Part shown: in pieces, positions 3,001-9,000 of the stretch | Layout: each line of letters starts with the position of its first letter | Numbering within the stretch: the stretch's first letter is position 1 | Position numbers: made by a program | Assembly: GCA_042217555.1 (NCBI GenBank) | Contig: JBDGSL010000077.1 | Coordinates: 8,521 to 54,876 of the forward strand | DNA: 46,356 bases | Direction of reading: 5' to 3' | Origin: Candidatus Nanohalobium sp. | Lineage (GTDB): Archaea > Nanohalarchaeota > Nanosalinia > Nanosalinales > Nanosalinaceae

Positions 3001-6000
3001 CCGCAAGGTACTGGGCCGCAGGATCCAAGGTCGGCGACGACTTCCCTTTCAAAGAACAGGAACTGGAAGCCGGAGAGAAACTGATGCGGAAACTGTGGAA
3101 CGCATCAAAACTTGTGGACTCGCTTACAGAAAACAGTTCAAAGCCCGAGAAACTTGATGAAATTGACGCATGGATCCTGGCAAAGCAGGACCAGGTTATA
3201 GAGGAAGTTACGGAACACATGAAGAACTACGAGTTCTCCAAGGCCCGTGACAGAGTCAGAAGCTTCTTCTGGCACAGTTTCTGCGACGACTACCTTGAGA
3301 TAGCCAAGCAGAAAGAAACAGCTTCAACCCGTTACGCACTGGAGACAGCACACAGAAAGTTCCTGAAACTGTTCGCACCCTTCCTCTCACACATTACAGA
3401 GGAGATCTGGAACCGTATGTACGCAGGTAAAAGTATCCACACCACTCAATGGCCTGAAAAGGAAGACGCAGAGGCAGACCTGGAAGCCGGAGAGAAAGCC
3501 ATGCAGGTTATATCAGCGCTCAGGAAGTACAAGTCAGGCAAGAACATGGCGCTAAACGAAGAAATAGATAGGGTAGAAGTTCACGGCGATATCACCGGCT
3601 TTGAAGACGCAGTCAGGGAAGTAATGCACGTCCAGGAACTGAAGCAGCTTGAAGAAGAACCCAGGATGGAGAAGAAGATTGTCGAAGTCAAACTCGACTA
3701 CAGCAAAGCCGGGCCGGAGTACGGTGAAAAGATCGGAGAGATAGAGGAAGAACTTGAAGCAGGAAACTGGAACATCGACATGGGCAAACTTGAAGTAGCA
3801 GGAGAACACCTTGAACCGGAAGAGTTCAAAGTAGAAGAAGAAAGAACCTACACAGGGAAGGGAGAAATGGTAGAAACCGGAGACACAGCCGTGATAGTGA
3901 AGTAAACAGCTCAAAAACCCTTTTCCCTCTTCTCTCTTCGTTCTTCCTGCAAAATGTTCTGCAGGTTCTCAAATTAAAAGAATTCACCTGGAACCTTGTT
4001 TTCATGACAGAGGAAAACTCTCAGGAAATGAACAAGTACCAGTTGAAGAAGCTGGTTAACAAGCTGGATGATATACGGGGAAGGAACACCGAGCTGGTCT
4101 CACTGTATATTCCAGCCGGTTACGACATGTCCAAGATCTCAGAGTTCATTACTTCTGAACAGTCCGAGGCAGAGAACATCAAGTCGAAGCATACCAGGAC
4201 AAACGTTCAGGACGCCCTTGGAAAGATCGGGAGGAAAGTGAAAGAAGAGCAGGAGACCCCGGAGAACGGTGTGGCCTTCTTCGCCGGAAACGTTTCAGAC
4301 ACCGAGGGAAGACCCGAGATAAAGATCTGGGAAGTTGTACCTCCACAGCCGATCGAATCCCGGCACTACAGGTGTGACAAGGAGTTCGTCCTTCAACCTC
4401 TGAAGGATATGATAGTAGACGACCGCGTCTATGGACTCATCGTCGCAGATAAGAACAAGGCAGCTATCGGGTATCTGCAGGGAAGCAGCGTGAAAACAGT
4501 GTACACCTTGGAGTCTAACGTACCTGGAAAGACCAAAGCCGGAGGGCAATGCTTGGATCCGGATTCTATAGTTCACATGTCTAATGGAGGACTGAAGAGA
4601 ATTGAGGATATTGAGGTTGGAGACAGCGTGAAGTCAGCAGAGTTCGAATCGATGGAGTTGAAGGATTCCAAAGTTGTGGACAAATGGAAAGAGAAGAAGA
4701 CTGTCTACGAGATAGAGACCAAGTTCCCAAGAAAAACCTTAACCTGTTCCGGCGATCATGAGGTATTCACTTCTAAGCTAGAGAAAAAAGCTGTTGAAAA
4801 CCTAGAGGAAGGTGAAAAGCTTCTATTCCCTGAAAGGACGGAAACCAGTTCCAGTGAGAGAATACTGAATACGGAAAAATACTACAACTCCTTCAAAGTA
4901 TCTGAAAAAGGAAGAGAAAAACTGAAAGAAATGAGAAAAGAGAGAGGATATTCTCAAGGCTCTCTAGGAGAAGAAGTCGACGCCACTCAGACAGCAATAT
5001 CCAAGATAGAACTGGGAGAAAGAGATGTAGGAACAGCGTTTCTACAGGATCTCTGTAAGGTATTGGGAGTTGATTTCAAGGAGTTTGTACAGGACTATTG
5101 CAGAGGCAAAGATTACAAGCTGCCAAAAGGCATTGACAGGGATCTAGCTGAAATCCTGGGCTACTTTGCTGGAGACGGTAGTTTCGACCCGGAGAGACTA
5201 AACTTCCACGAACAAGACAAGGAAGTAGCAGAGTACTACCAAGGAAAACTGGAGAAAGTATTCAACTGCAACACCAAAATCAGGTTTAGGGAAGATAAGA
5301 ACTACCATCTCTTGAGAGCCTTTGGCAAGCCATTAGTCAAATTCATAAAAGGAGAGTTTCCAGAAATCAAGAAGTCAAGAAATACTAAGATACCGGCGAA
5401 GATACTTGAAGCCGACGACAATATAGTTCAAGGATTTATACAGGGATTCTACAATGCAGAAGGACACTGCAGTGAAAGTAGAGGCCGAATAGGTATATCA
5501 GCAAACAACAAGATTATGATGCAGCAACTTCAATCAACACTGCTTAGAAACGAAGTAATAGCATCACTGACAACTTACGACAACAAGGAAAACCCTCACA
5601 CAGACAACACAAGATACACTGTAAGCATATCAGACGCAAAATCAATTCAGAACTTCGCCAATAAAATCGGATTCTGCAGTGAGAGAAAAACCGGTGAACT
5701 GGATAAAATATGTCAACTGGCCAAATCCAAGAACAACAACCGTCAAATAGTCAAGGATGGAAAAGAAGTCAGAAACATACTGGAAAACAATGGAAGAAAC
5801 TTCAGCGAGTTCAAAACCTCCAACATGTACTTACAGGGAAAAAGGGAGATTAGCAAGGCAAAGTTTGAAGAAAACATCAAAAAAGAAACAGGAGGAGAAT
5901 TAGAAAAGGAACTTGAGAATATTCACAACTCCCAAATTCTGCCGACAAAGATACAGTCAATTGAGGAAAAAGAAGAACAGGAAGTAGTAGACATAAGCGT

Positions 6001-9000
6001 AGAAGCCGGCAACTTCATAGCAAATAATCTGATAGTCCATAACTCAGCTCAAAGGTTTTCACGCCTCCGTGAAGAGATGTTAAAGACTTTTCTAGGTGAT
6101 ATAGCGGAGAAGGCGAAGAATGCGTTCCTGGGTAAGGCCCGTGAGGATAAACTTCTTGGCATCATTGTCGGTGGACCGGGTTTTGTCAAGGACAAGTTGC
6201 TGGATGAGGATTATCTTCATCAGGAGCTTCAGGACAGGGTCGTTACACGGAAGTCTCTGGATGTTTCAGGCGAGGCAGGCCTGTCTCAGCTCGTGGAGAA
6301 GGCTGAGGAGGAGATAGAGGATTCTCAGGTGGTGAAGGAGAAGAACCTTGTGAACAAGTTCTTCGACAATCTTAGAAAAGAGAACGGAAAATCGGAGTAC
6401 GGCGTGGAACAGGTGGAGAAAGCGTTGAAGATGGGAGCGGTCGAGACTGTTCTGATCTCCGAAGATGTCAACCTTTACAGGGCGAAGTACCGGTGTCCTA
6501 ACGGCCATGAGAAGGAGGTTTTCGAGGAAAAACCCGAGATCGATGACTCAGTTGAGTGTGAAGAGTGTAATGAGGAGATGCAACTTGAAGAGATAGCTGA
6601 TATAGTAGATATCTTCGGTGAGAAAGCCGAGGAGATGTCAAGCGAACTGGAGATCATATCAACCGACCATGAAGAAGGGAAACGTTTGATGAACATGGGA
6701 GGGGTTGCGGCAGTACTCAGATACAGGATCCGGTAACTTGTTAACCTTCCAGCACGTTACAAGAGCTATATGTCATCGATCAATGGCGTTGAACTGTCAG
6801 ACAACAGGTACACGGTAAAGCAGAAAGCAGTGAGGAACGCCTACAGAGTGTATGACTCTGCAGGAAAAGAAGTTCTCAGGACAAAACAGAACCTTATGAA
6901 GATGAAGGAAGAGTTCCCGTTCACTGATCCGGACGGCAACGAGGTTTTCACTGTTAAGGCCGAAAACCTGATGGATATAGCCGGAGACTACGTTCTTAAA
7001 GATGCAGAAACAGGCGAAGAGTTCGCTGTACTAAGCAAGGAGTTCACACTGCTTATACACAGGTGGAAGATCAAAAACAGCAATGGAGAGAAGATAGCCC
7101 GGATAGAGAGCAGGGGAAAAGCTGTAGGGCTGCTGAGATCTCTTTCCGAGCTTTTCCAGCTTCTTCCACACAGATACACGATAGAAGACAGTGAAGGAAA
7201 ACATGTAGGCACTATCAAGGGAAAGTTCAGGATAAGAGACCATTACGAGATAGAACTGGAGGAAGAGGTCGACAGGAAGGAAGCGGTGCTGGCCGCAGCC
7301 ATCACCATCGATGCACTTGAAGGAAACTAGCACGGAGAGACTGTTTTTTCCTTTTTTTCTCACTTCTTCCGATCCCTGGTTTTTCTATCAGTTAGGTATA
7401 TCAGTGTGGCCCCTGCCAGTGCAGCAGGTATGAACTCCGGTGAAACAGTTAACCAAGTTATTTCTCTCTGTGCCACAACTTTTTCAATCTGCAGCAGAGG
7501 TGCCCTGAGTGCTCCGACCACCATACTGGTCAGGAACACCATAGTCATCTCTCTATCTCTTTCAAAAGCTTTTTCCACCAGGTTGACAACTGAGAAAAGC
7601 CCTGCCACTGCTCCAGAAACGAAAAACATAATTGAAGGCGTTGCAGCCGTCAAACCTTCCATGTTACCTGTTTTAAACAGTTCCAGGCCGGCTTCAGTGA
7701 AGTTTGACAGCGCTGTCGAGATGTACTTGTACTGGCCCAGCATCACGAGCATGAGAGACCCTGACACTCCGGGAAGCACCATGGCACTGACTGCTACAGC
7801 CCCTGAAAACATTAAAACAACAGGTTCATGGCCCAGTGCTTTTGCACCGTATCCGGATGCAAGGAAAGCGAAAGCAAAACCTGTCAGTGCAGCTGTCTTA
7901 TCTTTAAACCTGCAGAAACTGATATCTCTGTAAAGTAACAGTGCTGAAGCCGCTATAAGACCGGTGAAGAAGGCGTAGGTCTGTACTGGAAGGTTCTCGA
8001 TCATATAGTGTACCAGGTTCAGTACGAGTACTACAGAGGTCAGGACGCCGGTACCGAGAACAGCCAGGAAAGGCACATCCAGGTCGTAGATCATCTTCTT
8101 CAGTTCGGAAAAGTTCAACACACTGACATGCCTCAGAAAACTGTGCAAATCCCTGTATTCCGGTGTCAAAGCGTCTATCAACCGGTCGTAGATACCTGTG
8201 ATCAGTGCTATGGTCCCTCCTGACACCCCGGGGACGGCGTCGGCCGCACCCATGGCCAGGCCCTTGAGGTAGACCGTGATGTACTCTTTTGTCTCCATAT
8301 AAACTTGTTTTTCACTGGAGATGTTTTAACGTTGTAATCAGGTCGGCCAGCAACTTTCTCACCGCTTCAAAAAATCCCTGGTTCTCCGGTTTTTCTCCAT
8401 CAAGGCCTGACATGTTTCTGGGTTCGGGAGTGGGTAGTTCCCTGATCTCTGCCTTCTCTCTTTCAGGTATCTTTTCCGCGTAGTACACAGGATAGTCGTA
8501 GCTGTTCACTCTTTTGAGACATGAATTAAACTCTTTTCTTGTCTGCTTCTTGCATGGCGTAAGATCTATGTGCCGGGAGTAGTACCTCCATTTCTCGGAA
8601 TTGTTTTCCAGTATTTTGCCGTCTAGAACTGTGTAAAGCTCTCTTAGAGAGTTATTTCTGGAGATGTAGTTCTTTACCACGAGTTCGGAGTATGCGTAGC
8701 CGAAGTCTCTGGCCCTGTGATCTGATGGACTCCAGTTCTCCATGAACGTCATGTTCTGACTGTAGTAATTCCACAGCTCATCTGCTTTGCCTTTAGAAGG
8801 TTTAGTTACCTGGTAGAGAGTGCCGTTTCTTTTATCCGTGTACTCTGTGGCGTTCCCGAACAGTTCCCGTGTCCTGGCCTCCCCCACCTGTTTCTTTCTC
8901 ACGAGGTACTGTACATACCCTGCTATCCCTTCCTCCAGGTAGCTACTGGAAGTCCGGTCATAGTTCAACGCTCTGTCGTTAAACGCGTGGACTGTTTCCT

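What a model noticed while it worked through the whole genome (the two positions that open the first line are those of the whole stretch)
4004..6736. Intein directly after the GGQ motif of release factor aRF1
The single aRF1 gene (g01360, 910 aa) carries a ~490-aa LAGLIDADG/HTH intein inserted between the catalytic GGQ tripeptide and the following Ser (..KAGGQ|CLDPDS..LIVHN|SAQRFSRLR..). The peptide-release centre therefore only exists after protein splicing. The same allele is patchy in Nanosalinales and occurs in other DPANN lineages.
Evidence so far: pfam.tsv: eRF1_1 15-137, eRF1_2 143-182 (hmm 2-41), Intein_splicing 191-680, HTH_3, 2x LAGLIDADG_3, eRF1_2 680-773 (hmm 41-133), eRF1_3; junction sequences. 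C-extein search: 63 of 70 Nanosalinales genomes matched; open frame >=900 aa (intein) in 10 incl. this one, 155-560 aa in the rest; the 3 other Nanohalobium genomes are intein-free. About 100 intein-bearing aRF1 clusters (790-930 aa) from Nanohaloarchaea, Woesearchaeota, Nanoarchaeota, Aenigmarchaeota. No paper on a natural eRF1/aRF1 intein found. The main text of the intein host survey PMC4760082 holds 0 mentions of release factor, eRF1 or aRF1.
(Added by a program. Inside this text positions count along the whole contig: contig position 8,521 is position 1 of the stretch shown here. "Call 12" and the like, gene names such as g00115 and contig names such as C1 are that model's own, and its searches are not shown. 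The text may have been shortened before it was handed on; [...] marks where a part breaks off. The agent that wrote the report below was given it as the finding of a first reader that could run no searches.)

Follow-up and report, generated by a model that had tools for sequence, protein, structure and literature searches.

The report
Homing intein in archaeal release factor
The only gene for the protein that ends translation in this tiny salt-loving archaeon is interrupted at its catalytic centre by an ordinary self-splicing, self-spreading intein; the element is of a known kind, but this host protein seems undescribed.

Summary
Confirmed. The single aRF1 gene (4004-6736) carries a 498-aa class 1 intein (nt 4550-6043) between GGQ and Ser681. 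It has all splicing residues, a two-motif LAGLIDADG endonuclease and an HTH insert; splicing gives a normal 412-aa aRF1. It behaves as a selfish homing element. Exteins up to 98% identical differ in carrying it. Full, HTH-less and mini forms all exist, and intein and host trees conflict, even across phyla. The same site is also invaded outside DPANN, in Nitrososphaerales. There a second, unrelated intein sits in the YxCxxxF stop-codon motif, and 15 of 90 hits carry both. Splicing, DNA cutting and regulation are untested. The genome has at least 16 intein-bearing ORFs, so aRF1 is one target among many. Searches found no paper on it, but JGI auto-names already say eRF1/intein. The scan found both sites before on other genomes (e1-3012817, e1-6491449). 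Verdict: new member of a known kind.

The parts
4004..6736 (+). aRF1 precursor gene, 910 aa
4004..4549 (+). N-extein, aa 1-182: N domain and first part of the M domain, ending in GGQ
4175..4186 (+). NIKS stop-codon motif (aa 58-61)
   Evidence: sequence; N58, I59, K60 invariant in 65 of 65; motif role from PMC3467058 passages
4367..4387 (+). YxCxxxF motif (aa 122-128); empty here, but its Cys is the +1 residue of a second intein site in Nitrososphaerales
4541..4549 (+). GGQ (aa 180-182); Gln182 is the -1 residue of the intein
4550..6043 (+). Class 1 intein, 498 aa, Cys183 to Asn680
4550..4552 (+). Cys1 (block A nucleophile)
   Evidence: 70 of 70
4757..4759 (+). Block B His252
   Evidence: 70 of 70
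4922..5086 (+). XRE/Cro-type HTH insert (aa 307-361); dispensable, missing in 9 of 50 endonuclease-bearing alleles
5132..5728 (+). LAGLIDADG endonuclease domain (approximate ends); acidic residues D391 (block C) and E486 (block E) kept; N484 where 49 of 50 have Asp
5756..5929 (+). Small helical domain between endonuclease and C-terminal splicing region (approximate); position of the accessory domain in TliVMA
   Evidence: secondary structure; PMC8966425 passages; its role is inferred
5990..6043 (+). Block F Asp663 to block G His679-Asn680
   Evidence: 70 of 70 each
6044..6736 (+). C-extein, aa 681-910, starting with Ser+1: rest of M domain and C domain

Best explanation
A selfish class 1 homing intein occupies the GGQ loop of the only aRF1. 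SHOWN: the anatomy, the catalytic residues, the fold, the patchy spread and tree conflict. INFERRED from established intein chemistry: Cys183 attacks the Gln182-Cys183 bond, Ser681 takes over the N-extein, Asn680 cyclises, and a Gln-Ser bond restores a 412-aa aRF1. INFERRED: the precursor cannot put GGQ into the peptidyl-transferase centre while a 498-aa domain hangs on that loop, so splicing is obligatory; Gln methylation by the Mtq2-like enzyme probably follows. INFERRED: the excised intein cuts empty aRF1 alleles at this site and is copied in by repair. The site is favoured because it is essential, nearly invariant and followed by Ser, so imprecise loss is lethal and distant hosts still match. 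Lineages then lose the HTH or the whole endonuclease, or the intein precisely, and are re-invaded.
For: Splicing residues invariant in 70 of 70 alleles. Block C Asp in 49 of 50 and an acidic block E residue in 48 of 50 endonuclease-bearing alleles. Model pLDDT 94.8, pTM 0.92; best PDB match TliVMA intein 7qss, E 1.3e-25. 12 of 62 carriers in the order; at least 9 state changes for 10 carriers on a 60-genome extein tree; six carrier/empty pairs with exteins 89-98% identical. G000-G038 intein pN 0.109 is below their extein pN 0.134, while the five other G000 pairs have intein pN 0.24-0.30 against 0.11-0.19. An Aenigmarchaeota and a Woesearchaeota intein group at 100; AU p about 1e-45 in both directions. 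Of 62 complete GTDB alleles, 33 are full, 9 lack the HTH and 20 are mini-inteins. At least 16 intein-bearing ORFs in this 1.3-Mb genome.
Against: Neither splicing nor DNA cutting was tested. The window's allele alone has Asn484 where 49 of 50 have Asp, so its nuclease may be impaired; TliVMA has Val there and PMC8966425 treats it as active. The G038 transfer is only weakly supported by AU on exteins: p 0.043, or 0.29 with the sister genus included; a P0007+P0009 intein clade was not rejected, p 0.14. All AU groups were chosen after seeing the trees. Synonymous sites are saturated, so there is no dN/dS ratio or dating. Monophyly of all GGQ-site inteins has only SH-aLRT 84 in a quick tree. Intein GC (0.406) is low but within the range of long ORFs: 12.5% of 280 are as low.
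Confidence: 0.86

Rival explanations
1. Domesticated switch: splicing is conditional (salt, redox, temperature, host contact), so the intein sets the level of active aRF1 and with it termination and read-through.
For: Single essential gene, split at the catalytic loop. Mini-inteins that cannot home persist: 20 of 62 complete alleles. A second site lies in the decoding motif. Exaptation of some inteins as sensors is mentioned in PMC10710043 (passage).
Against: 50 of 62 relatives, including 3 of 3 congeners, lack it, and near-identical exteins differ in carrying it. No conserved second Cys: position 248 is Cys in 12 of 41 full alleles, and +1 is always Ser. Mini-inteins are also expected from simple decay.
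Confidence: 0.08
2. Old vertically inherited intein, lost many times, with no present mobility; this copy has a dead nuclease.
For: Deep splits of the intein tree follow some host groups. Asn484 is unique to this copy. No viral carrier was found.
Against: Cross-phylum conflict. The endonuclease is as conserved as the splicing domain, at 89%, 87% and 81% identity to the three closest alleles. The G000-G038 intein is closer than their exteins. This rival can still be true of this one copy.
Confidence: 0.05
3. Artefact or dead gene: misassembly, or a non-splicing pseudogene backed by another aRF1.
For: The genome is a 94% complete MAG; both covering runs may be its source.
Against: One open frame with exact junctions, repeated in 66 of 68 homologues (the other 2 are partial) and in 99 of 119 pattern hits in GTDB genomes. 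No second aRF1 found.
Confidence: 0.01

Closest known systems
TliVMA intein (Thermococcus litoralis V-ATPase A, VMA-b site; PDB 7qss, 7qsu; PMC8966425)
   Same: HINT + two-motif LAGLIDADG + accessory domain before the C-terminal splicing region; best match by sequence (E 2.6e-19) and by fold (TM 0.66/0.77)
   Different: Other host and site, 19% identity; this intein has an extra XRE-type HTH before the nuclease
PI-TkoII (2cw7), PI-PfuI (1dq3), PI-SceI
   Same: Same modular homing-intein fold
   Different: Other hosts, 12-19% identity, other accessory domains
Inteins of archaeal translation proteins aIF2/InfB, aEF-2, Rps12 (PMC4760082 Table S6)
   Same: Inteins in essential translation proteins; aEF-2 listed for Nanohaloarchaeota; this genome also has an IF-2 family intein
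   Different: aRF1 is not in that table; the site is a peptidyl-tRNA hydrolysis loop, not a GTPase
aRF1/eRF1 (TIGR03676; PDB 4af1, 3agk)
   Same: NIKS, YxCxxxF, GGQ, three domains; spliced length 412 aa
   Different: Made as a 910-aa precursor
HTH-bearing LAGLIDADG inteins of other archaeal hosts (RadA, FttA-like beta-CASP, GlmS, epimerase, TopoVI A)
   Same: Nearest non-aRF1 inteins in the 50% library
   Different: About 24-32% identity; no donor could be named

Membership tests
Class 1 intein | In-frame insertion absent from orthologues, at a precise site | tested here: met
   50 empty orthologues read GGQ then Ser directly
Class 1 intein | Cys/Ser at position 1 | tested here: met
   Cys183, 70 of 70
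Class 1 intein | Block B His, block F Asp, terminal His-Asn | tested here: met
   H252, D663, H679, N680, each 70 of 70
Class 1 intein | Ser/Thr/Cys at +1 | tested here: met
   Ser681, 70 of 70
Class 1 intein | HINT fold | tested here: met
   predicted model and Foldseek; a prediction, not a solved structure
Class 1 intein | Protein splicing shown | not testable with these tools
   needs expression or proteomics
LAGLIDADG homing endonuclease | Two LAGLIDADG helices with acidic catalytic residues (blocks C, E) | tested here: met
   D391 and E486 present; neighbouring N484 departs from the family
LAGLIDADG homing endonuclease | Cuts the empty allele of its own site | not testable with these tools
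   needs a cleavage assay
LAGLIDADG homing endonuclease | Phylogenetic signs of mobility | tested here: met
   strong for the family; weaker for this copy
aRF1 (TIGR03676) | NIKS, YxCxxxF, GGQ and N/M/C domains | tested here: met
   412.8 bits against a cut-off of 234.7
aRF1 (TIGR03676) | Stop-codon-dependent peptide release | not testable with these tools
   needs an in vitro release assay
Conditionally splicing (regulatory) intein | Splicing depends on a physiological signal | not testable with these tools
   indirect signs are against it: patchy, no conserved extra Cys
Conditionally splicing (regulatory) intein | Retained throughout a lineage | tested here: not met
   12 of 62 in the order, 0 of 3 congeners

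The most novel reading that the evidence does not exclude
The intein acts as a post-translational gate on translation termination. Because the only aRF1 is active only after splicing, salt, redox or host-contact conditions that slow splicing would raise stop-codon read-through, and the precursor, whose decoding domain is intact, could even compete at stop codons. Nitrososphaerales alleles with inteins in both the decoding and the catalytic motif would be double gates. It would be the first intein control of termination.
Probability: 0.08. Interest if true: 0.82.

Novelty: new member of a known kind. Interest (0 to 1): 0.42.

Why it matters
It adds class I release factors to the list of intein hosts. 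Both of their functional motifs are hit, which supports the view that inteins go for any essential invariant site with a Ser or Cys, not mainly for DNA-replication ATPases. With about one in ten to one in five sampled DPANN genomes carrying it, and all decay stages present, it is a usable marker of gene flow between small-celled archaea and towards Nitrososphaerales. Practically, such genes are misnamed in NCBI ('LAGLIDADG family homing endonuclease', 'helix-turn-helix domain-containing protein') and the split halves can fall under marker cut-offs in six-frame searches, so aRF1 may be scored as missing. It also offers a direct test of conditional splicing at an essential step.

Tried and rejected
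(1) Idea that the intein drives the catalytic Gln from -1 to +2 (GGW/GGF/GGM then SQ). It arose from 15 non-Q carriers among the 23 sequences printed. Rejected: in a class sample, 13 of 13 short-frame non-Q genes read were intein-free GGW/GGM; my hand count is 6 of 14 carriers against 30 of 82 empties. The Fisher test used preliminary counts (6/16, 32/79; p 1.0). In the other class it was 2 of 16 against 1 of 132 (p 0.03, post hoc), left unexplained. (2) 'Methanosarcinales' carriers: 5 so-labelled MAGs are 0.9-1.8 Mb, 0 of 5 have McrA, and 4 of 4 tested exteins nest among Woesearchaeota; taken as mislabelled. (3) Viral vector: 15+1+1 viral loci, none with aRF1. (4) Halobacterial-type motif: 0 metagenome hits with Cys after GGQ against at least 120 with Ser; this covers one exact motif only, which is not specific to Halobacteria. 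(5) Mixed population: no contig joint skips the intein in 3 runs, but contigs drop rare variants. (6) No RNA holder listed. (7) dN/dS: synonymous sites saturated. (8) GC contrast as proof of foreign origin: too weak. (9) Two long frames were not inteins: G323 spans an assembly gap and G253 is empty. (10) No donor intein identified.
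Full report
OBSERVATION. The ORF 4004-6736 (+) encodes 910 aa. Pfam gives eRF1_1, an eRF1_2 domain split at model position 41/42, Intein_splicing, HTH_3, two LAGLIDADG_3 stretches and eRF1_3; TIGR03676 scores 412.8 bits, split at 173/174. The insert runs from Cys183 to Asn680 (nt 4550-6043, 498 aa); removing it leaves 412 aa. It is the only aRF1 found in the 94.4% complete genome, and no empty site exists there. 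Contigs of 2 of 3 laid runs cross both junctions; both runs may be the source of the genome. Upstream is valS, downstream a LOR-family gene; 5 of 8 tested empty or filled loci of relatives show the LOR gene and 4 of 8 show valS within their short flanks.

ANATOMY. I aligned 70 alleles (41 full, 9 without HTH, 20 mini); two GTDB rows, L104 and L148, were left out because frame length and junctions equal rows already present. Cys1, block B His, block F Asp, His-Asn and Ser+1 are invariant. Among 50 endonuclease-bearing alleles, block C Asp is kept in 49 and an acidic block E residue in 48. The window keeps both (D391, E486) but alone has Asn484 for Asp; its six closest listed relatives have Asp. 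TliVMA has Val at that place, so the change need not be fatal. AlphaFold2 gives pLDDT 94.8 and pTM 0.92 for the intein; the best PDB matches are TliVMA, PI-TkoII, PI-PfuI, PhoVMA and PI-SceI. The precursor model (pLDDT 86.3, pTM 0.59) matches both aRF1 4af1 and TliVMA, with low confidence only at the N-terminus and beside the two junctions.

DISTRIBUTION. In the order, 63 of 70 genomes match: 12 carry the intein, 50 are empty, 1 is unreadable. The 3 congeners are empty, yet two metagenomic proteins of the same extein clade (P0002, P0003) carry it. Of 68 homologues at E <= 1e-100, 66 show GGQ followed by Cys and 2 are partial. Titles of true hits are Woese-, Pace-, Nano-, Aenigm-, Iain-, Micr- and Nanohaloarchaea or unnamed archaea; 5 labelled Methanosarcinales are small, lack McrA and look mislabelled. 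In a sample of the class of G070 (Woesearchaeota-type by its extein), 16 of 148 matching genomes carry it, the centre included, all 16 junctions read. In the class of G227, 14 of 96 do by my hand count, 7 read and 7 by frame length. Unread short frames may hide cut copies.

BEYOND DPANN AND A SECOND SITE. Of the best 150 library representatives, 58 of the 147 new ones are aRF1 with this insertion. Two also carry a second intein before the Cys of YxCxxxF. A targeted search gave 90 proteins: 54 with that site only, 20 with the GGQ site only (in 4 the other site was not matched by my pattern), 15 with both, 1 not aRF1. All 9 aRF1 rows with an NCBI organism name are Nitrososphaerales or Thaumarchaeota; 4 of them carry the GGQ-site intein. 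Of the 120 best short relatives, 118 are empty at both sites. The second intein is only about 21% identical to the window's, a separate invasion.

MOBILITY. At least 9 changes are needed for 10 carriers on a 60-genome extein tree, and six carrier/empty pairs have exteins 89-98% identical. The inteins of G000, P0002, P0003 and G038 (another genus) group at 100/100, while the extein tree does not group them; intein pN for G000-G038 is below extein pN, unlike five other pairs. AU support on exteins is weak for that case (p 0.043; 0.29 with the sister genus) and strong for G043+P0007 (1e-5); the intein tree rejects the extein grouping with G067 (1e-4) but not P0007+P0009 (0.14). Across phyla, an Aenigmarchaeota and a Woesearchaeota intein group at 100 with AU about 1e-45 both ways, and Iainarchaeota inteins nest among Woesearchaeota ones. 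These groups were picked after seeing quick trees. Nitrososphaerales inteins fall among Micrarchaeota-like and unnamed alleles with moderate support, so the direction is not settled. The nuclease is as conserved as the splicing domain, and pN is far below pS in every domain.

MECHANISM. Shown: anatomy, residues, predicted fold, spread. From established intein chemistry (my knowledge): N-S shift at Cys183, transfer to Ser681, Asn cyclisation, O-N shift. GGQ must reach the CCA end of the P-site tRNA (PMC3467058, passages); with Gln182 tied into the intein's active site that is sterically implausible, so splicing is inferred to be obligatory. H. volcanii aRF1 is methylated on this Gln by Mtq2 (PMC6144793, passages), and G000 has a HemK-related gene over the family cut-off; methylation after splicing is inferred. 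Homing by the nuclease, aided by accessory domains, follows the TliVMA model (PMC8966425, passages). The genome has Intein_splicing matches in at least 16 ORFs, among them SufB, HerA, IF-2, XPD-like helicase, TopoVI B, Hel308-like helicase, MCM, DP2, TopA, RtcB, RNR, Lhr and thioredoxin. That favours a high intein load over a special role in termination.

PRIOR KNOWLEDGE. Ten library searches (listings and abstract starts only) showed no paper on a natural aRF1 or eRF1 intein. PMC4760082: supplement file 2 has no hit for release factor, eRF1, aRF1 or COG1503, and I read Table S6, which lists aIF2, aEF-2 and Rps12 but not aRF1; file 1 could not be searched and may bear on this. Term searches of the main text found no 'intein' in the release-factor review PMC6514570 or in the Forterrea genome paper PMC5905446, and no eRF1 in PMC10710043. 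InBase and most subscription journals were out of reach. JGI automatic names already read 'eRF1/intein/homing endonuclease'. This scan noted the GGQ site (e1-3012817) and the YxCxxxF site (e1-6491449) on other genomes; I found the second site before seeing that note.

VERDICT. Real, intact-looking and conventional in kind: a new host protein and insertion site for a class 1 LAGLIDADG intein. Interest 0.42. A regulatory role is not excluded (about 0.08) but has no positive evidence.

Noticed in passing
window 24304-26100 (+); intein about 24388-25869: Thioredoxin with a roughly 494-aa intein inserted inside the WCGPC active site; the +1 residue is the first catalytic Cys. Not in Table S6 of PMC4760082; one search listed no natural case. 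A better candidate for redox-linked splicing than aRF1.
   Followed up: partly
window 16837-21264 (-): Lhr helicase with an intein; a known host type.
   Followed up: no
L374-L386 (class of G227): Intein-free aRF1s in which GGQ is replaced by GGW or GGM, 13 of 13 read. Ten have a Gln two places on, like the GGxSQ of aVLRF-1 (PMC6514570); three (L374, L376, L381) have no Gln there at all. About a third of that class sample by hand count. This contradicts 'universally conserved GGQ' and deserves its own study.
   Followed up: partly
P0120, P0148, P0226-P0292: Second aRF1 intein site at the Cys of YxCxxxF in Nitrososphaerales, with full and shortened forms; 69 of 90 hits carry it.
   Followed up: yes
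L362, L365 (G195, G135): Two Woesearchaeota-type carriers have GGW before the intein and SQ after it, a form not flagged among 132 empties of that sample; lineage trait or co-conversion from a donor, unresolved.
   Followed up: partly
L059 (G020:C1:6041-6448): Second, shorter aRF1-like paralogue (348-aa frame, intact GGQ, no intein) in one genome of the order.
   Followed up: no
L082, L112, L136, L143, L167: Five MAGs labelled 'uncultured Methanosarcinales' look like Woesearchaeota-type DPANN.
   Followed up: yes
L368 (G100), L390 (G323): G100 has the intein start but only a 424-aa frame (cut or broken, not resolved); G323's 1096-aa frame is valS and aRF1 bridged by an assembly gap.
   Followed up: partly
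G000:C1:41751-42002 (L004): Weak TIGR03676 match (E 2.4e-7) in a 434-aa frame; possibly a baeRF-type protein, not examined.
   Followed up: no
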